Shown here: positions 12,766-20,538 of the stretch, in pieces
Position numbering within the stretch: the stretch's first letter is position 1
Layout of the letters: each line of letters starts with the position of its first letter
NCBI GenBank assembly: GCA_963805975.1
Contig: CAWDVR010000003.1
Coordinates: 448,001-512,000, forward strand
Direction: 5' to 3'
From: an uncultured Acidobacteriota bacterium
Lineage (GTDB): Bacteria; Acidobacteriota; Thermoanaerobaculia; Multivoradales; SZUA-115
Length of the DNA stretch: 64,000 nucleotides
Made by a program: the position numbers and the translations under genes
Notes under the pieces: model-generated
The model's database searches: none
What the model was told of the DNA's origin: nothing
What the model saw: the letters and a program-made list of their open reading frames with translations, nothing else

Positions 12766-14949
12766 TCACGGCACGGTCAGGGACCATTCCTCGGTCCCGC
12801 CGGACTCGAAGCCGTCGGCGAAGAGCCCGGTCGGCCCAATGCGCACGATCTTGCCGAGCGACGGCACGCCGTCGGAGCTGACCAGGAAGAGCAGGTAGTG
12901 GCCCGGCGGGCAGAGCCTGGGGTCGGCGGGCGCCGTGACGCTCAGGCCGCCCGGTGCCACTTCGAAGGCGAGCCGGTTGATGCGCTGGTTCATGTTCAGA
13001 GCGTGAGTGACCGAGGAGAGGCGGATCAGCGTCACCGCACTGACCGCGGCTCCGTCCGGGGTCTGGACGAAGAAAGTCCCGCCGTGGGGAACGGCCGCCG
13101 GAGCGGCGGAGAGCACGGGCCGCGGGCCTCGGAACAGGTAGGGCGGCGAGAAGATCTCGGCGGTGAAGTGGTCCGTGTCGTCGCCGCCGCCGTTGGGGTG
13201 GCCGCCACCCGGCACCAGCACGCGGGCGTCCGGTAGGAGCAGTGCCTCCGAGTGATAGAGGCGCGCCTCGTGACCGGCGGCGAGCGTCTGCCAGGTTTCG
13301 GACGCGGGTTCCCAGAGCTCTGCCGGGTAGACGGCACCGTCGCTGTTGTTGAAGCCGGGGGCCCCGGTGCCGCCGGTCGCGAGCACGGTGCCGTCCGGCA
13401 GCAGAGTGAGGTTGTGCTGCCGCCGCCGGTAGGCCATGGGTGCAGTGGTGCGCCACTCGGGCCTCGGCGTGGCGAGGTCGATCACCTCCACGGCAGCGAC
13501 CGGGGGGTCGCCTCCCCCGGCGATCATCACCTTGCCGTCGTCGTAGAGCACCGCCGAGCCGTAGTCACGGAAGCCGAAGGCGCTGTCGTCGACCGCGGTG
13601 TAGGAGCCGGTGCCCGCGGGGTCGAAGTAGCCGGTCTCGGCCTGGGGCCCGGCGGTGAACACCCGGCCATTCGGTGCCAGGAAGAGGTAGGGGTAGAGAG
13701 GAAGCCACTGCACGGCGCCGGTCAGGCTCCGCCAGGTGCCGGTCGCGTGCTGCCAGACCTGCGGCAGGGTGTTGACGCCGAGCTGCGGGGTGATCCTGCC
13801 GGAGGCCACGAGCACGTCACCGTTGGCGAGGAGCACCGCCGTCGGGTACCAGCGGGCGGCATTCATCACCGGCTGCGCCTGCCAGAGGCCGCTCACGGGG
13901 TCGAGGATGCTGGTCAGGTCCTGGCCCACGTTGTCGATCACGTGGCCACCCGTCGCCAGCAGGCGGCCGTCGGCGAGCAGCACGTGGGCGGTGCAGAAGA
14001 GGTCGTGGTCTCCGGGCGGCAGCGGCGCCAGGCTGACGATCCCGGTCTCCGGGTCGTAGTAGCGGGGATCGCCGTCGCCGGCGGCGTCGTGACGGTCCCA
14101 GAAGAGCACCTTGCCGTTGGGCAGGAGGTGGGCGTGGATCGACACCACCGGCCAGGCGAAGGGCGCGCTCCACTGCCCGACCGCGCTCGGCGGGCAGGTG
14201 GTGTAGGTGACCTGGACGTTGTCGAGGTCGTGGTCCGCGGTCTGCCCTCCGCCTCGCGCGCCGACCCAGGCACGCCCCTCGTAGGGGAGGAGGCCGGGCA
14301 CGGGAAGGGCGTTGATCACGGTCACCGCGCCGCCGCCGGCCGGGGTCAGCGTGACGGTGACCGAGGGCGTGGCGCCCGTCGCCAGCAGCACCCGGGCGTG
14401 GACCCACTGGCTCGATGCCAGGTTGACGGCGCCGGCCGGGACCTGCGCCAGCCGCACGCCGTTCCAGTGCACGGAGACGTGGTTGCCGTCGGGGTCGCCG
14501 ACCTCCGCGTTCTGAAAGACGTCGAAGCCGATGCCGAGCGAACGAGCGAAGTTGGGCTCCTCGGCGGCGAAGTGCGGGCCTTCGACGCCGGCCGCGCCCC
14601 GCGTGTGGTGGAGCGCGGTGTCGAGCAGCACGAAGCCCAGGCCGTCGGCACGGCCGGTGCCGGGGGTGATGCGGAAGTCGAGCTCCGCCGTCATGCCGCA
14701 GAACGGGCCGGGGTCCGTACGATCGAAGGCGATGGTGTTGTGGATCGGCGTCACGCCCGCGCCCGGCACGAGTCGGAGGAAGTTGCCGGAGGGCCCGGCG
14801 GTCACCGCGGCGCCCGGCGCATTGGCGAGCTGGAGGAGCTGGTAGCCGGAGCCCGGGCCGTCGAAGTCCTGGGTGGTGGCCGCCTGGGCGGGAAGGCCGA
14901 CGAGGCCGAGCAGGAGCAGCCAACCCGAGGCGTGGTGAAGTCGGGGCAT
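12766..14949 (-). CDS. Secreted galactose/glyoxal oxidase-like copper radical oxidase (AA5-like) with N-terminal legume-lectin domain and DUF1929-like C-terminus
   Basis: ADGLGF lectin motif; HDLFCTAH, RWYPT, RLYHS and VTH (Cys-Tyr and Cu ligand motifs); PPGHYLLF; LFADGFESG tail. Confidence 0.87.
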   Translation of the reverse strand: MPRLHHASGWLLLLGLVGLPAQAATTQDFDGPGSGYQLLQLANAPGAAVTAGPSGNFLRLVPGAGVTPIHNTIAFDRTDPGPFCGMTAELDFRITPGTGRADGLGFVLLDTALHHTRGAAGVEGPHFAAEEPNFARSLGIGFDVFQNAEVGDPDGNHVSVHWNGVRLAQVPAGAVNLASSQWVHARVLLATGATPSVTVTLTPAGGGAVTVINALPVPGLLPYEGRAWVGARGGGQTADHDLDNVQVTYTTCPPSAVGQWSAPFAWPVVSIHAHLLPNGKVLFWDRHDAAGDGDPRYYDPETGIVSLAPLPPGDHDLFCTAHVLLADGRLLATGGHVIDNVGQDLTSILDPVSGLWQAQPVMNAARWYPTAVLLANGDVLVASGRITPQLGVNTLPQVWQHATGTWRSLTGAVQWLPLYPYLFLAPNGRVFTAGPQAETGYFDPAGTGSYTAVDDSAFGFRDYGSAVLYDDGKVMIAGGGDPPVAAVEVIDLATPRPEWRTTAPMAYRRRQHNLTLLPDGTVLATGGTGAPGFNNSDGAVYPAELWEPASETWQTLAAGHEARLYHSEALLLPDARVLVPGGGHPNGGGDDTDHFTAEIFSPPYLFRGPRPVLSAAPAAVPHGGTFFVQTPDGAAVSAVTLIRLSSVTHALNMNQRINRLAFEVAPGGLSVTAPADPRLCPPGHYLLFLVSSDGVPSLGKIVRIGPTGLFADGFESGGTEEWSLTVP

Positions 14950-15119
14950 TGGAGAGTCTCCCGAAGATCGGGTTGAGGCCCCCAGTCTACTCTTCCTGCC
15001 ATTGCATCAACTGCTTCGACGATGACGAACGAGCTCGCCCCGCAAGCGAGTGTCACTGTGAAACTCATCTAGCTTCCATGCGTACATAGGGGTCGGACAC
15101 CCGAAGACCGGAGCCCTCG

Positions 15120-15434
15120 ATGCCCTCGAAACCCCTCGGTACCTCGACCCTCGCCGTGCTGGCCGCCGTGGCCCAGGGCTTTCGCTACGGCTTCGATGTG
15201 ATGGACCGCGCGGCTCTCCAGAGCGGTACGGTCTACCGCGCCCTGGCGCGCCTGGAGGAGCTGGAGCTGGTGCGGTCGGACTGGGAAGAGGCGGCCGCGG
15301 CCCTGGCCGAGAAGCGCCCGCGCCGCCGCTACTACGAGATCACCGCCGCCGGCTCGGCCGAGCTGGTCCGAGCCGAGGCAAGCTTGCGTGCCCTCACCCG
15401 CTGGGTGGCCCTCGAGCCCGCGGAGGGAGGCTAG
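15120..15434 (+). CDS. PadR family transcriptional regulator
   Basis: YGFDVM....LQSGTVYRALARLE, RPRRRYYEITAAG; directly upstream of an ADOP permease. Confidence 0.9.
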   Translation: MPSKPLGTSTLAVLAAVAQGFRYGFDVMDRAALQSGTVYRALARLEELELVRSDWEEAAAALAEKRPRRRYYEITAAGSAELVRAEASLRALTRWVALEPAEGG

Positions 15435-15436
15435 CC

Positions 15437-18109
15437 ATGGCGGCGGAAGAGCGCCCACCCAGCCCGGTGCTGCGCCTCTGCCGGCTGCTGCTCCAGGCCC
15501 TCGGCCTGGTGCTGCCCAGGAGCAGCCGCGCCCCGTGGCGCGAGGGCTGGGAGGGCGAGCTCTGGCACCGCTGGCGGCTCCTGGCCGGCGGCGGCCGCCC
15601 TCCGCTCACCGCCCAGCTCGACCTCCTGGCGCGCTCGACCGGCGCCTTCTCCCACGCCCTCTGGCTCGCGAGCCGTGAATGGAGGACCGAACCCATGCTG
15701 CAGGATCTTCGCTACGCCTGGCGCCAGCTCGTTGCCAAGCCCGGCTTCACCGCCGTCGCCCTGCTCTCTCTCGGTCTCGGGATCGGTGCCAACTCGGTGC
15801 TCTTCAGCGTTGTCGACGGCGTGCTGCTCCACCCCTTCCCCTATCCCGAGGTGGACCGCCTGGTGGCGCTCGGCGTCTCCTACCCCAAGCTGGGCGGCGA
15901 GGAGCGCTTCGTGGAAGCGGTATCCGAGCCGGAGCTGGCGGACGCGGAAAACGGGAGCCGCACCCTGGAGCGCTTCTTCGCCTTCGACCTCGGCAACCGG
16001 GACCTGGGCGGCATCGACGTGCCGGAGCGGCTGTTCACCGCCTTCGTCTGGCACGACCCGTTCCCCACGCTCGGCCTCCCGCCGGCCCTCGGCCGCGGCT
16101 TCACGCGCGAGGAGATCGAGCGCCAGGAGCCGGTGACGATCGTCAGCCACCGGGTGTGGAAGGACCGCCTGGGCGGCGACCCGGCGTGGGTCGGGCGCTC
16201 GATCCTGGTCAACGGCATTCCCCGCACGCTGGTCGGCGTCATGCCGGCCCGGCTCTCGCTGCTCAACACCGAGCTGTGGCTGCCGATGTGGGCGTCGCGC
16301 GGCGAGCTGCCGCGGGAGCAGCGCCAGTTCACGGTGCTGGCGCGGCTGGCGGACGGCGTCTCGCTCGCCGAGGCCAACGCCGAGCTTGAGACGCGCGCCG
16401 CGCAGACCGAGCAGGCGTTCGTCGCCGAGCGCCCGGAGTATGCGGGCTGGCGCCTGGCCGCCACCCCGTTCGTCGGCGTCTGGGGAAAGTTCGTGGGCCC
16501 GGCCGGCTACATCCTGCTGGGCGCGGTGGGGCTGGTGCTGCTCCTCGCCTGCACCAACCTGGCGAGCCTTCTCCTGGCGCGGGCCAGCGCCCGCCAAGGG
16601 GAGCTCGCGGTGCGTGCCGCGCTCGGCGCCGCCCGGCCGCGCCTCGTCCGGCAACTGCTGACCGAGTGCCTGCTGCTCGCCGCCGGCGGCGGCGCGCTGG
16701 GCCTGCTCCTGGCTGTCGCGGGGCTGGACGCGGCGGTCGCCGCGCTGCCGCTCGACCAGTTGCCGGGCCACGTGGAGATCGGCGTCAACGGCCGCGTGTT
16801 GGGCTTCACGCTCGGGGTCTCGCTCCTCTCTGGGCTGCTCTTCGGTGTGGTGCCCGCCTTGATCGGCTCGCGGGTGGACGTCCAGGCGCGGCTCAAGGCC
16901 AATGCCGGGCGCTCGCCGCTGGGCCGCCGCGCGGGCTTCGTCCGCCGCGCGCTGGTGGTGGTCGAGGTGGCCCTCGCCCTGATGCTGATGGTGGGCGCGG
17001 GCCTCCTGATGAAGAGCCTCCTCCGGCTGCGCGCGGTGGATCCGGGAGTCGAGGTGGAGAACGTGCTCACCATGCGCCTCACCCTGCCGCAGGAGCGCTA
17101 CCAGGGCGTGGCGGTGGTGCAGTTCTTCACCGAGCTGGCGGAGCGGGTCGCGGCCGTGCCGGGCGTCGAGTCCGCGGCCGTGGCGAGCCAGCTCCCGCCG
17201 CTCGGAGTCTTCGATACACGGTTCGAGATCGAGGGCGAGGCGCCGGCCACGGCCGAGCTGCTGCCGGTGATGGACCTCACAGTCGCAAGCCCCGAGCTCT
17301 TCCGCACGCTCGGCATTCCACTCCACCGGGGACGCCTCTTCGGCGGCGAGGACGGCATCTCCTCGCCGCCCGTGGTAGTGGTCAACGAGATGATGGCCCG
17401 GCGCTACTTTCCGGGCCGCGAGGCGATGGGGCGGCGCATCCGCCTGGGCGGCGGCAGCGGGCCGTGGGCGACGATCGTCGGCGTGGTGGCGGACACCCGC
17501 AACCACGGCCTCGACCAGGCGACCGAGCCCGAAGCCTTCGTGCCCCTCGCCCAGACGCGCGGCGCCGACAACCAGCTCTTCCTGGTGGTGGCGACCCAGG
17601 GAGACGCGCTCGCCGCCCTGGGCTCGGTCCGCGCCGCGGTGCGCTCGCTCGACCCCCACCAGCCGGTCTACGCGGTGAGCACCGTGGCGCAGCGGTTCGC
17701 CGGCCAGCTCATGGCGCGCCAGGTCGCCGGCATCGCGCTCTCGGTCTTCGCGCTGGTGGCGCTGGGGCTTGCCGCCATGGGCATCTACGGCCTGCTCTCC
17801 CACTCGATCGCCGAGCGCACGCACGAGATCGGCATCCGCATGGCGCTCGGCGCCGGGCGCGAGAACGTGCTCGCGCTGGTGGGGAGGCAGGTGGCGGTGC
17901 TCCTCGCCTGCGGCCTGGGCCTCGGCGCCGCGGGTGCGCTCGCCCTCTCGCGCTCGCTCTCGGCCCTGCTCTTCGAGGTCAAGCCCACCGACCTGCGGAC
18001 CCTCGTCGTGGTCGCCGCCGTGCTCGGGGCCACCGGTCTCCTGGCCGGCTACCTCCCGGCGCGGCGCGCCGCGGCGCTCGATCCCTCGCGGGCGTTGCAG
18101 GAGGGGTGA
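15437..18109 (+). CDS. ADOP family duplicated ABC permease with N-terminal prefix domain
   Basis: MLQDLRYAWRQL, LGLGIGANSVLFSVV, LLLACTNLASLLLARA, RTHEIGIRMALGA. Confidence 0.93.
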   Translation: MAAEERPPSPVLRLCRLLLQALGLVLPRSSRAPWREGWEGELWHRWRLLAGGGRPPLTAQLDLLARSTGAFSHALWLASREWRTEPMLQDLRYAWRQLVAKPGFTAVALLSLGLGIGANSVLFSVVDGVLLHPFPYPEVDRLVALGVSYPKLGGEERFVEAVSEPELADAENGSRTLERFFAFDLGNRDLGGIDVPERLFTAFVWHDPFPTLGLPPALGRGFTREEIERQEPVTIVSHRVWKDRLGGDPAWVGRSILVNGIPRTLVGVMPARLSLLNTELWLPMWASRGELPREQRQFTVLARLADGVSLAEANAELETRAAQTEQAFVAERPEYAGWRLAATPFVGVWGKFVGPAGYILLGAVGLVLLLACTNLASLLLARASARQGELAVRAALGAARPRLVRQLLTECLLLAAGGGALGLLLAVAGLDAAVAALPLDQLPGHVEIGVNGRVLGFTLGVSLLSGLLFGVVPALIGSRVDVQARLKANAGRSPLGRRAGFVRRALVVVEVALALMLMVGAGLLMKSLLRLRAVDPGVEVENVLTMRLTLPQERYQGVAVVQFFTELAERVAAVPGVESAAVASQLPPLGVFDTRFEIEGEAPATAELLPVMDLTVASPELFRTLGIPLHRGRLFGGEDGISSPPVVVVNEMMARRYFPGREAMGRRIRLGGGSGPWATIVGVVADTRNHGLDQATEPEAFVPLAQTRGADNQLFLVVATQGDALAALGSVRAAVRSLDPHQPVYAVSTVAQRFAGQLMARQVAGIALSVFALVALGLAAMGIYGLLSHSIAERTHEIGIRMALGAGRENVLALVGRQVAVLLACGLGLGAAGALALSRSLSALLFEVKPTDLRTLVVVAAVLGATGLLAGYLPARRAAALDPSRALQEG

Positions 18110-18114
18110 AGGCG

Positions 18115-18204
18115 TTACCCGAGCTCGCCCGCCTCGACGAGGAGCGCACGATAGATCCTGGCGCGGGGCGCGTCGATGTGACGGCGGGCGTGGGTTGATG
18201 CCAT
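18115..18204 (-). pseudogene. Truncated SRPBCC/AHSA1 family gene (29 codons)
   Basis: GGAGG RBS, then MASTHARRHIDAPRARIYRALLVEAGELG*, resembling the N-terminal strand and helix of SRPBCC proteins. Confidence 0.5.
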
Positions 18205-18230
18205 GCCTCCTCCCGGGCAACGGTACGGCC

Positions 18231-19139
18231 TCAGCACTCTTTGTAGTGGCGCTCCATGGCATGCATCTTCTTGGTCGGTGTATTCAAGCTGTCACCGTAC
18301 CAGTCGGCGAGGTAGGTGGAGCACATCACTTTCTTCGGTGCCAGGTTGCCGACCCATTCGGCACAGCCGTAGGGGCACGGAGGGAGCTCGGCATAGAGCC
18401 AGTCGAGGCTGGCACCGGCCTGGAGAAGGCTCTTTTGGGTCTCAGCACCGTCCGTCTGGTAGAACGTGACTCCTAGCTGCTCGCAAACCTTCTGGAGTGC
18501 GCCGCGCTCGGCGTGGCTGGGTGCGGTTCCGCCGGTATTGCTGCGCGCAGTACCGGTGACCACCTTGCCCTTTTGGCTGGTCGCCTGCGCCATGGCGAAG
18601 CAGCAGAGTGTGCTTCCCTCCTTCTTGCGCAGCGTTCGCACCGGCTGGAGGATCTCGAGATCGGAGGAATCGACCTCCTCGAGCTTGTAACCCTTCCGTA
18701 GCTCGGCTCGTGGCTGCTGGAGGGGCGGCGCGGAGAGCCGGCGGAGGGCGTAGTCCATACAGAAGCTGTGATGTTGCCAGGGGACCTGCTGCTCCTTGAT
18801 CCACTGGAAGACCGCCGGCAGCGAGCCGAGCTGGTCGATCTGCGAGCGGTACCAGCCTTCCAGCTCGTCGTAGTCCGGGATCTGGGGATCCGTGGTGTAG
18901 GTGATCTCCTCCATGCGCTGGATCGTGCGCGAGGGCCACGGCGGCGGCGAGATCACGGGGCGCCAGCCTGCCGGATGCGCGATGCGCGCCCTCATCGGCT
19001 GCGCCGCGGGAGCCAGGGCCCGCGCCAAATGCGGCGCCAGCGGTATGGGAGCGGGAGCCACGGCGGGTTGCCCGACGCTGGCGATCATCCGCGCCACGTG
19101 CGGCGCGAGCGGCCGCGCTGGAGCGGCGTTGGGTTGCAC
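18231..19139 (-). CDS. Zn-dependent nucleic-acid deaminase domain protein (polymorphic-toxin type) with low-complexity N-terminus
   Basis: HAE ... WLYAELPPCPYGCAEW (HxE/PCxxC-type). The frame is open upstream to a CTG at 19217 behind GGAGG, so the start is uncertain. Confidence 0.72.
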   Translation of the reverse strand: MQPNAAPARPLAPHVARMIASVGQPAVAPAPIPLAPHLARALAPAAQPMRARIAHPAGWRPVISPPPWPSRTIQRMEEITYTTDPQIPDYDELEGWYRSQIDQLGSLPAVFQWIKEQQVPWQHHSFCMDYALRRLSAPPLQQPRAELRKGYKLEEVDSSDLEILQPVRTLRKKEGSTLCCFAMAQATSQKGKVVTGTARSNTGGTAPSHAERGALQKVCEQLGVTFYQTDGAETQKSLLQAGASLDWLYAELPPCPYGCAEWVGNLAPKKVMCSTYLADWYGDSLNTPTKKMHAMERHYKEC

Positions 19140-19299
19140 CGTGCGGTGCTGGGTCGGTAGCTGCGGCAGCTTCCGCGGGTGGCGGCCGAGAGCGAGGGTG
19201 GGGAGTCGGGGCGGCAGTTGAGCCTCCAGTTCAAGCTCGGGGGCAGCTTACAGCCTATCCTTTTCGAGTCGTCCAGGGACCTTGCCGGAGATCAACCCG

Positions 19300-20538
19300 T
19301 CAAGGACGCTCTGCCAAGAAATCGAGCATCGTCGCGAGCGTCTCGCGCTCGAGGATCATCTCGAAGTGCGGGCCGTGGAGGTCGAAGGGCGGGTGGGAGA
19401 GGGCAGCGCTCTCCTGGGGCGAGAGAGAGTGCTGGCTGGCCTGGGCGGCGTGGCCGTCGCCGCGGGCCCTGGCGAGGGCCGCGAGCCTCGGCCGCGCCTC
19501 CAGCCAGGGGTCGCCGGTGAAGTGCGTCCGCCAGCGCCCGCCGCTTTCCACGAGCACGGCACGCCAGGGTGTGGGCTCGTCGAGGCTCTGGAGCGAGGCG
19601 TAGCGAGTGGCGCCGAAGGTGGGCGAGTCCGCTGCGAGGAGCTTGCGCAGGCGCCGGGCGCGGTCCAGGGAACGGGTGAGGAGGGCCAGGCGGTCCTCCT
19701 CCGGGCCCAGGAGGTCGAACGGCTTCACCGCCAGGCGTCGCGCCGCCCTCGCGCCCCAGATCGACCAGCCGTAGCGCCGCCAGCTCTCGGCCGCGAAGAG
19801 GTCGATGGCGAGTGGCTGGCCCTCCTCGTCCAGGAAGAGGTCCGCAGGCTCGGTCGGCAGATCCTGGTAGAGCGACGGGAACGTGAACAGGGTCTCCGGC
19901 GCCCAGGTCCGACCGACGAACCCGGCGTAGGAGCGCCCGCGGTTCATCTCGCGGAGGATGCGGAGACTGCCGGCGTTGGAGGTGCCGACCAACAGGAGCT
20001 GCTCGATCACGACGCCGGGGACCGGGGCCGCCCGCCCGGCCTCCGCCTCTTCGAGCGAGGCCGCGCCGTACTTGGCGAGGTACCGGCAGATGCGCTCCCC
20101 GGCCGACTGGCAGATGAGCGCCACCCGCAGCTCGGGGCCGCCGCGCAGCTCGTGGAGTGCCTCGAGCCGCGCGGCGAGCGAGGCCACGGCCTCAAGATTG
20201 TCCTGCCGCCAGTCATAGGGGAAGACGAAGAAGCTCTCACCGGGCTCGGGGTCGAGGAGGTTGCCGGCCGTGAAGCCGTTGGCCTCCAGCAGGCGGACGA
20301 TGGGGCCGTAGACGTCCTTTTTCCACATGCCAAGCGGCAGCGGGATCTCCTCGATGACGTCGAAGGCCGTGACGCTTCGCGGCTTCAGACCGGGCTTCAC
20401 CGGCAGGGCCAGCGCCCTCCCGCCGTCCCGCGGCGAGAACAACCGCGCCGCCGTGCCCCACTCGACGCGGCAGGTCTCCTCGTCGCGAAGCTGCGAGCCC
20501 GTGATCCCCGGTACCAGCACTACCACCCGCTCGCCCAC
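19300..20538 (-). CDS. Alpha/beta hydrolase, LCAT/lipase-acyltransferase-like
   Basis: VVLVPGITGSQL, FPYDWRQD, CQSAG nucleophile elbow, GTSNAGS, GDG near the C-terminus, late His. Confidence 0.78.
   Translation of the reverse strand: MGERVVVLVPGITGSQLRDEETCRVEWGTAARLFSPRDGGRALALPVKPGLKPRSVTAFDVIEEIPLPLGMWKKDVYGPIVRLLEANGFTAGNLLDPEPGESFFVFPYDWRQDNLEAVASLAARLEALHELRGGPELRVALICQSAGERICRYLAKYGAASLEEAEAGRAAPVPGVVIEQLLLVGTSNAGSLRILREMNRGRSYAGFVGRTWAPETLFTFPSLYQDLPTEPADLFLDEEGQPLAIDLFAAESWRRYGWSIWGARAARRLAVKPFDLLGPEEDRLALLTRSLDRARRLRKLLAADSPTFGATRYASLQSLDEPTPWRAVLVESGGRWRTHFTGDPWLEARPRLAALARARGDGHAAQASQHSLSPQESAALSHPPFDLHGPHFEMILERETLATMLDFLAERP

What the first reader, a model, noticed from the sequence alone, without database searches (positions are those of the whole stretch)
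18231..19217. Orphan toxin-type nucleic-acid deaminase with a repetitive N-terminal leader and no immunity gene
Seen: HAE...WLYAELPPCPYGC Zn motif; leader with repeated PLAPH(V/L)AR....(G/A)QP units ending TIQR; the catalytic part is visibly less GC-rich; downstream there is only a 29-codon SRPBCC fragment. Known: HxE/PCxxC deaminases of polymorphic toxins act on DNA or RNA and have been developed into base editors, and xQR junctions precede toxin domains in eCIS (DUF4157)-associated effectors. Inference: an effector with a swappable tip loaded by a secretion or injection system encoded elsewhere.
Basis: partly seen in the sequence, partly recalled or inferred. Interest (0 to 1): 0.7.

Follow-up and report, generated by a model that had tools for sequence, protein, structure and literature searches.

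The report
Repeat-tagged type VI secretion deaminase effector
This gene encodes a predicted DNA/RNA-editing toxin whose front end carries a short repeated tag shared by about 15 other putative toxins with unrelated business ends in the same genome, and the tag tracks a type VI injection system, so it is likely an undescribed address label for loading cargo into that machine.

Summary
The ORF is real: a CTG start behind GGAGG, two PLAPH(V/L)AR units, a TIQR junction, and a zinc-deaminase tip (HAE...ELPPCPYGC). The tip has a predicted deaminase fold and lies closest to the XOO_2897 clade. No immunity-like gene follows. The leader is not unique: 16 ORFs of this genome carry the repeat R-x-A-[AP]-H-V-x-A-A-[VLI] (0 decoys), each on its own tip. 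Elsewhere it sits on HNH/WHH, EndoU, XOO_2897, OTT_1508 and papain-like tips.

The evidence points to type VI secretion rather than eCIS. All 9 leader-positive genomes found by profile have a T6SS, and 0 of 47 eCIS-tube-positive, T6SS-negative genomes have the leader. Leader genes form tandem arrays directly after clpV and sit beside vgrG. A DUF4157 subtype fused to this leader, and to two homologues of this tip, shows the same T6SS link.

Caveats: few independent lineages; leader-positive genomes also carry eCIS loci; this assembly's tssC and tssF are frameshifted; secretion and activity are untested. Verdict: a new lineage-specific effector marker of the RIX/MIX kind.

The parts
18231..19217 (-). 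Effector gene, 328 aa, probable CTG start
19223..19227 (-). GGAGG ribosome-binding site 5 nt before the CTG
   Evidence: sequence
18915..19217 (-). Pro/Ala/Arg-rich leader, residues 1-101, likely disordered (inferred from composition)
19065..19115 (-). Leader repeat 1 (R-P-L-A-P-H-V-A-R...Q-P)
   Evidence: leader profile E 2.4e-8 for this ORF
18996..19046 (-). Leader repeat 2 (P-L-A-P-H-L-A-R...Q-P)
18915..18926 (-). TIQR junction between leader and tip; similar xQR/xQP/xQA/xQL junctions in paralogs
18735..18872 (-). Predicted three-helix segment (residues 116-161), function unassigned
   Evidence: only generic helical matches
18234..18683 (-). Zinc-dependent deaminase domain, XOO_2897-like
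18507..18515 (-). H-A-E zinc/catalytic motif (H235, E237)
   Evidence: sequence
18363..18389 (-). E-L-P-P-C-P-Y-G-C motif (E277, C281, C285)
   Evidence: sequence
18115..18204 (-). 29-codon downstream ORF; too short for a typical immunity protein, family unproven
14913..19308 (.). Variable block (PadR, MacB/FtsX permease, stub, effector) missing at the syntenic site of same-genus genome G001

Best explanation
This is a likely type VI secretion cargo effector: an N-terminal His-Val repeat leader that would address it to the genome's T6SS, joined at TIQR to a predicted zinc-dependent cytosine deaminase of the XOO_2897 kind that would mutate or damage nucleic acid in a target cell, probably a eukaryote such as an amoeba or fungus. 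Shown: the leader recurs on unrelated toxin-like tips; it occurs only in T6SS-bearing genomes among those searched; its genes sit inside T6SS clusters; no immunity-like gene follows. Inferred: the short repeats form amphipathic helices in a disordered arm and dock on a T6SS part (spike, Hcp tube, the stand-alone DUF4157 protein of the cluster, or ClpV). Also inferred: the tip stays harmless in the producer because it is held unfolded or needs a target-side substrate or processing at the xQR junction, and the substrate is cytosine in single-stranded nucleic acid.
For: Leader family: 16 ORFs at E<=0.01 in this genome against 0 reversed decoys (a profile seeded on four own ORFs gave 19 above the best decoy), with unrelated tips. 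Among 37 database hits the leader is fused to XOO_2897-deam (3), WHH, EndoU, PF05708 and eCIS_core (3); in relatives also to GH-E, OTT_1508 and EndoU. Co-occurrence: leader in 8 of 151 order genomes, all among the 20 of 151 with VipB, plus G134, also VipB-positive (1 of 5). It is in 0 of the 47 gp19-positive, VipB-negative genomes, including three of the same family. Class sample: 3 of 301, all among 39 VipB-positive. Position: five consecutive leader genes directly after clpV in G002, four in G006, one in G003; one directly before vgrG in G000 and G002; inside the cluster in G001, G057, G074 and G134. A gene with repeated motif units follows vgrG in G278, another order (motif match only). 10 of 11 eCIS stretches have no leader gene. 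The DUF4157 subtype with an RVRNPFG extension scores strongly in 10 of 151 genomes, all VipB-positive, and in two VipB-positive genomes of another order, inside their T6SS clusters. Two homologues of this tip carry that subtype. All 13 core T6SS genes are present in this genome. Immunity: 8 of 15 intact paralogs have no coding-like co-directional ORF within 60 nt, and the G002 and G006 arrays are back to back. Literature passages: RIX effectors without immunity neighbours are the anti-eukaryotic ones (PMC10435454); XOO_2897 itself lacks immunity and is linked to T6SS (PMC3239186); some XOO_2897 members deaminate cytosine in ssDNA (10.1101/2023.05.21.541555).
Against: Only two lineages carry the leader by profile (a third by motif), so kinship inflates the co-occurrence counts. 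11 of the 19 TssC rows in the same clade come from genomes where no leader was found. The genome searches miss true cases: G134 was missed and G278. Every leader-positive genome checked also has an eCIS-like locus; G003 and G006 lacked gp19, sheath and Pvc16 hits but hold divergent loci. One G057 leader gene lies about 4 kb from an eCIS sheath gene. A disordered leader plus optional DUF4157 is the published eCIS cargo layout (10.64898/2026.05.27.728243). One tip homologue is from Brevibacillus, so the tip is not tied to T6SS. tssC and tssF are frameshifted in this assembly. This protein itself has no XOO_2897 Pfam hit, and its structural scores are middling (Z<=6.8). Three paralogs are followed by 237-255 aa co-directional genes that I did not test as immunity proteins.
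Confidence: 0.7

Rival explanations
1. eCIS cargo: the disordered leader is a system-specific loading sequence read by the eCIS AAA+ ATPase, and the tip is injected by a released particle.
For: The genome has two eCIS loci and six DUF4157 genes. The leader is fused to eCIS_core. Published eCIS cargo is a disordered NTD, optional DUF4157 and a variable CTD, and often lacks immunity (10.64898/2026.05.27.728243; PMC3482391). Leader-positive genomes also hold eCIS-like loci.
Against: 0 of 47 gp19-positive, VipB-negative genomes have the leader. Leader genes cluster at clpV and vgrG of the T6SS and are missing from 10 of 11 eCIS stretches. The two DUF4157 genes inside this genome's main eCIS locus lack both the leader and the RVRNPFG extension.
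Confidence: 0.14
2. T6SS-linked but not an export address: the repeat is a self-protection or modification arm (for example it keeps the tip inactive, or is methylated at its invariant His), and export uses another feature.
For: No immunity genes, so some in-cis protection is needed. These T6SS clusters carry a methyltransferase whose best hits are histidine N-methyltransferases and a PKMT-like one.
Against: The His-type methyltransferase occurs in 16 of 151 genomes, including leader-negative and VipB-negative ones, and was not found in leader-positive G001 and G002. One short motif would hardly inhibit so many unrelated folds.
Confidence: 0.1
3. A decaying or inactive cargo gene: a former effector now without a working machine or without catalytic activity.
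For: Non-ATG start; tssC and tssF frameshifted; several leader paralogs in pieces; no homologue in 40 relatives.
Against: The ORF is intact with all zinc ligands and a good ribosome-binding site. The T6SS frameshifts cluster in about 4 kb of otherwise well-conserved genes, as long-read errors would (inference), and TssC is intact in the four leader-positive family relatives.
Confidence: 0.06

Closest known systems
RIX-class polymorphic T6SS cargo effectors (PMC10435454, passages read); MIX, FIX, PIX and WHIX markers (search listings or abstract starts only)
   Same: Lineage-restricted N-terminal marker on scattered orphan genes with diverse toxic tips; members without immunity genes.
   Different: Here the marker is a roughly 12-residue His-Val repeat in 1-5 or more copies within a Pro/Ala-rich arm, not a single two-helix domain. 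It occurs in Thermoanaerobaculia (inferred from the source label of P0057), forms arrays after clpV, is paired with DUF4157, and no immunity-like gene was seen even after nuclease-type tips in the arrays. Export is untested.
XOO_2897-like deaminases (PF14440; PMC3239186 Table 1)
   Same: [quoted passage not shown]
   Different: No PF14440 hit for this protein; an extra helix between helix 2 and strand 3; C-x3-C spacing; a preceding three-helix segment; no PAAR or RHS trunk and no SUKH-4 gene.
eCIS cargo with disordered loading sequence and DUF4157/eCIS_core (AlgoCIS Cgo1/2; PF13699)
   Same: Low-complexity N-terminal arm, optional DUF4157, variable tip, no immunity.
   Different: Published eCIS loading sequences have no conserved motif (PMC11297309; 10.64898/2026.05.27.728243), whereas this one does. 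The leader and its DUF4157 subtype track T6SS clusters rather than eCIS loci.
DddA / SCP1.201 deaminases (PF14428)
   Same: Toxin-type zinc deaminase; DddA is a T6SS effector (recalled).
   Different: No PF14428 hit in any of 14 family members; a different structural division of the fold according to PMC3239186.

Membership tests
Zinc-dependent deaminase fold | HxE and PCxxC-type zinc ligands | tested here: met
   H235, E237, C281, C285; conserved in the family alignment
Zinc-dependent deaminase fold | Helix-hairpin-helix-strand-helix-strand core | tested here: met
   AF2 secondary structure; the eight best VIA rows are deaminases, best Z 6.8, rmsd 3.8, 105 aligned; Foldseek had no hit at E<=0.001
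Zinc-dependent deaminase fold | Catalytic activity and substrate | not testable with these tools
   needs an assay
XOO_2897-like clade | PF14440 above its curated cut-off | tested here: not met
   no hit for this protein at E<=1; 8 of 14 family members hit weakly, best E 0.0032
XOO_2897-like clade | E between strand 3 and helix 3, aromatic after strand 4, truncation after helix 4, strand 5 absent (PMC3239186 Table 1) | tested here: met
   E277 in YAELPPC; TYLADWY after the last strand; the model ends in one helix
XOO_2897-like clade | Groups with PF14440-labelled tips | tested here: inconclusive
   hhalign 93% to P0056 and 73% to P0040, against 51% to an OTT_1508-like tip; the tree joins it with 2 of 3 labelled tips at 95/93, with unsettled bootstrap and long branches
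DddA/SCP1.201 | PF14428 match | tested here: not met
   0 of 14 members at E<=1
T6SS cargo effector with delivery marker | Shared N-terminal marker on polymorphic toxic tips | tested here: met
T6SS cargo effector with delivery marker | Marker confined to T6SS genomes and found in T6SS clusters | tested here: met
   9 of 9 profile-positive genomes are VipB-positive; 8 of 9 have a copy in the fetched cluster stretch; few independent lineages
T6SS cargo effector with delivery marker | Marker necessary and sufficient for T6SS export | not testable with these tools
   needs a secretion assay
RIX/MIX/FIX/PIX/WHIX (named markers) | Match to a named marker model | tested here: inconclusive
   no Pfam or NCBIfam family covers the leader, but I did not check that these libraries hold all five models
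eCIS cargo | Disordered N-terminal arm with or without DUF4157 | tested here: met
   composition and fusions; disorder inferred, leader not modelled
eCIS cargo | Genetic link to eCIS loci or eCIS-only genomes | tested here: not met
   0 of 47 gp19-positive, VipB-negative genomes; 1 of 11 eCIS stretches
Classical polymorphic toxin | Cognate immunity gene directly downstream | tested here: not met
   only a 29-codon ORF, then a convergent gene

The most novel reading that the evidence does not exclude
This T6SS type loads cargo the way an eCIS does: the His-Val repeat arm, helped by a T6SS-specific DUF4157 protein, is gripped by an AAA+ unfoldase (ClpV is the only one seen in the fetched clusters) and threads many different unfolded toxins into the Hcp tube, which would explain 15 or more effectors, one VgrG cluster and no immunity genes. 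That would be a hybrid delivery logic and the first sequence-defined tube-loading tag for a T6SS.
Probability: 0.2. Interest if true: 0.85.

Novelty: new variant of a known kind. Interest (0 to 1): 0.64.

Why it matters
T6SS effectors lack a general secretion signal, and each new delivery marker opens a catalogue of effectors. This one is a short, testable motif in an uncultured Acidobacteriota lineage, and it flags dozens of tips, most with no Pfam match. It also shows that DUF4157, used as the eCIS marker in effector predictors, has a subtype living in T6SS clusters, so DUF4157-based assignments can name the wrong machine. The tip defines a small unnamed deaminase subfamily beside XOO_2897, a clade with reported ssDNA cytosine deaminase activity, and so is a candidate editing enzyme.

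Tried and rejected
eCIS as the delivery route: my starting reading (70%), lowered. 'G003 and G006 lack eCIS': suggested, withdrawn after searches showed divergent CIS loci. GC step as proof of a tip swap: rejected (the reference gene set was biased towards codon-adapted genes). SRPBCC label for the stub: not supported. Histidine methyltransferase acting on the leader: weak, because its distribution does not follow the leader. Close homologues of the tip: only itself in the word-index search, none in 40 relatives, and the search for related loci returned two unrelated DUF4157 loci. NCBIfam and PDB sequence searches with the protein gave nothing significant. ESM Atlas: XOO_2897 clusters at 0.81-0.85 for the tip and unnamed clusters at up to 0.89 for the leader, leads only. 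Reads: no RNA holder listed; the single DNA run did not cover the gene, so the CTG start and T6SS frameshifts are unchecked. No sigma-70 promoter match. Complex prediction of leader with the ClpV N-domain was not available. The conserved tip beside vgrG folded at pLDDT 69 with no clear match (best Z 3.3). Earlier scan notes: three unrelated notes, nothing on the leader. Rows left out: C2:679141 (single unit, judged chance) from the paralog list; P0012 and P0014 (long, multi-stretch hits) from the tip alignments; G000 TssC (frameshifted) from the tree; P0007 (fragment) and one OTT_1508 tip from the deaminase tree.

Full report
Observation. The ORF at 18231-19217 (-) is open for 328 codons. It starts most plausibly at a CTG with GGAGG 5 nt upstream, while most paralogs use ATG; no reads were available to check this. 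It has a Pro/Ala/Arg-rich leader with two PLAPH(V/L)AR units ending in TIQR, then a three-helix segment and a zinc-deaminase domain (AF2 pLDDT 83.6). Pfam PF00383 hits below cut-off. Structure searches return deaminases first but weakly (Foldseek none at E<=0.001; VIA best Z 6.8). The GC drop from leader to tip (0.78 to 0.63) is mostly amino-acid composition, as GC3 is 0.86 versus 0.82. Downstream lie a 29-codon ORF of unproven family and a convergent permease gene. The whole block 14913-19308 is missing at the syntenic site in the same-genus genome G001, and no homologue was found in 40 relatives.

The tip. A search of 1.84 billion representatives gave 16 hits including itself. In 14 aligned members P-C and the second C are invariant and H-x-E-R nearly so. 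11 of 14 hit PF00383, 8 of 14 hit XOO_2897-deam weakly, 2 of 14 carry eCIS_core, and none hits SCP1.201. The features listed for XOO_2897 in Table 1 of PMC3239186 (passages read) fit the model. Profile comparison gives 93% and 73% to two PF14440-labelled tips against 51% to an OTT_1508-like tip, and a rough tree joins the family with two of three labelled tips. I call it a divergent sister subfamily of XOO_2897, not a Pfam member. Cytosine deamination of ssDNA is reported for some XOO_2897 proteins (10.1101/2023.05.21.541555, passages), which is the basis for my substrate guess. One homologue is from Brevibacillus, so the tip travels with other machines too.

The leader. An iterated profile seeded on four own ORFs found 19 ORFs above the best reversed decoy. 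I dropped one as chance, and several are pieces of frameshifted genes. A later profile found 16 at E<=0.01 with 0 decoys (partly circular, as it was built from such sequences). The consensus unit is R-x-A-[AP]-H-V-[QA]-A-A-[VLI]-x-x-A-Q, with His invariant. Tips are unrelated, and at least three others look like deaminases (one weak OTT_1508 hit; the rest by motif). Among 37 database hits the leader is joined to XOO_2897, WHH, EndoU, PF05708 and eCIS_core domains, and one hit is labelled Thermoanaerobaculia. That protein matches by eye an ORF of same-order genome G119, which is my basis for the taxon. For 15 intact paralogs, 8 have no coding-like co-directional ORF within 60 nt; the others are followed by another leader gene, vgrG, two stubs under 35 aa, or three 237-255 aa genes I did not test.

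Which machine. The genome has two eCIS loci, six DUF4157 genes and a T6SS with all 13 core genes, of which tssC and tssF are frameshifted in this assembly. In 151 genomes of the order the leader was found in 8, VipB in 20 and the eCIS tube gp19 in 59. All 8 are VipB-positive and 6 are gp19-positive, and none of the 47 gp19-positive, VipB-negative genomes has it. A more sensitive profile added G134 (1 of 5). In 301 class genomes 3 had it, all among 39 VipB-positive. These searches score a limited candidate list and missed G134 and G278, and kin are not independent: leader-positive TssC proteins form two supported clades inside a 19-row group that also holds 11 rows from genomes without a detected leader. 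Position is the stronger evidence. Five leader genes follow clpV back to back in G002, four in G006 and one in G003; a conserved one precedes vgrG in G000 and G002; others lie in the clusters of G001, G057, G074 and G134. A gene with repeated motif units follows vgrG in G278, of another order. Ten of 11 fetched eCIS stretches have none, and the exception is about 4 kb from a sheath gene with unrelated genes between. Against my reading, G003 and G006, which first looked eCIS-free, hold divergent CIS loci, so no leader-positive genome is shown to lack an eCIS.

A second marker. Four of the six DUF4157 proteins here carry an RVRNPFG extension, and the two in the main eCIS locus do not. A profile of it hit 13 of 151 order genomes: 10 strongly, all VipB-positive, and 3 weakly, VipB-negative. 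It hit 6 of 301 class genomes, 5 strongly, all VipB-positive, two of them in another order with the gene inside the T6SS cluster, in G278 directly beside vgrG. The leader is fused before or after this DUF4157, and both DUF4157-bearing homologues of the deaminase tip have the extension. That links the tip family to the same T6SS type independently of the leader.

Mechanism. Best reading (0.7): the repeat is an export address for this T6SS, and the protein is an orphan cargo effector that would deaminate cytosine in a target cell, probably a eukaryote, since neither it nor its arrayed relatives have immunity-like neighbours. The docking partner, any cleavage at xQR, the role of the three-helix segment and the target are all inferred; the complex predictor was not available. 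Rivals: eCIS cargo (0.14), a protective or modified arm rather than an address (0.10), and a decaying gene (0.06).

Known and new. It works like RIX-class effectors (PMC10435454, passages) and is built like eCIS cargo (10.64898/2026.05.27.728243 and PMC11297309, passages; both say no conserved loading sequence is known). No Pfam or NCBIfam model covers the leader. Nine full-text searches listed no paper that, by title and abstract start, describes this motif or a DUF4157-linked T6SS in Acidobacteriota. Passages from PMC3482391, PMC6653060 and 10.64898/2026.09.28.754971 did not either. DUF4157 near T6SS genes has passing mentions (PMC11297309; one Lysobacter row in PMC6653060). The library lacks most subscription papers, a motif cannot be searched by meaning, and I read no supplements; effector tables there could list members. 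Verdict: new variant of a known kind, interest 0.64.

Noticed in passing
G000:C6:161883-162758 (L002) and orthologues in L026, L030, L038, L044, L049, L093: A conserved leader-bearing gene (52-77% identical tip...AAGE.G...GHNDKTGH...) found in at least seven genomes, in or near the T6SS cluster in most and directly before vgrG in two; no Pfam hit, model pLDDT 69, no clear fold match. Possibly a core effector or adaptor.
   Followed up: partly
G000:C6:164862-165923; L050:717-1772; L117:12103-13062: A Trm112-like plus methyltransferase gene beside a His/Pro-rich PAAR gene; best hits are histidine N-methyltransferases OvsM/OvoM (E 2e-21). Present in 16 of 151 genomes, 12 of them VipB-positive.
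   Followed up: partly
L044:8873-10477, L038:7232-8791, L049, L117:6680-8272: A PKMT-like protein methyltransferase (PF10119, PF21782) inside several of these T6SS clusters; not found in G000 with this query.
   Followed up: partly
L002, L040, L041, L050, L117: These T6SS clusters also share FadL-type outer-membrane, SPOR, MORN-repeat and IPT/TIG-repeat genes.
   Followed up: no
G000:C6:145015-146432 and 147426-149233: tssC and tssF each carry several frameshifts within about 4 kb while staying well conserved; assembly error or decay cannot be told apart.
   Followed up: partly
G000:C1:439030-446581 (L001): A second array of leader genes away from the T6SS, partly frameshifted, preceded by a PF02636 methyltransferase-like frame and ending in a leader-DUF4157 fusion.
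   Followed up: partly
G000:C2:204102-204962 and C2:473976-475340: Two tips that look related by eye (HxE...SPCS...GCTERL), one on the repeat leader and one on a DUF4157 trunk: a possible direct case of trunk exchange.
   Followed up: no
P0004, P0008, P0011, P0015, P0016: Homologues of the deaminase tip carry other low-complexity repeat leaders that do not match this profile: possibly further lineage-specific address tags.
   Followed up: no
L066-L072 (G002, G003, G006): Divergent contractile-injection-like loci that score for Baseplate_J, in genomes (G003, G006) where the gp19, sheath and Pvc16 profiles found nothing.
   Followed up: partly
L042:1273-10376 (G003); L039, L049, L051: A peptidase-type ABC transporter, in G003 with a small precursor-like ORF and lanthipeptide-like modifying genes (by eye), lies next to several of these T6SS clusters.
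   Followed up: no
window 15120-18109: PadR regulator plus duplicated MacB/FtsX permease, a multi-copy pair in this lineage, travels in the same variable block as the effector.
   Followed up: partly
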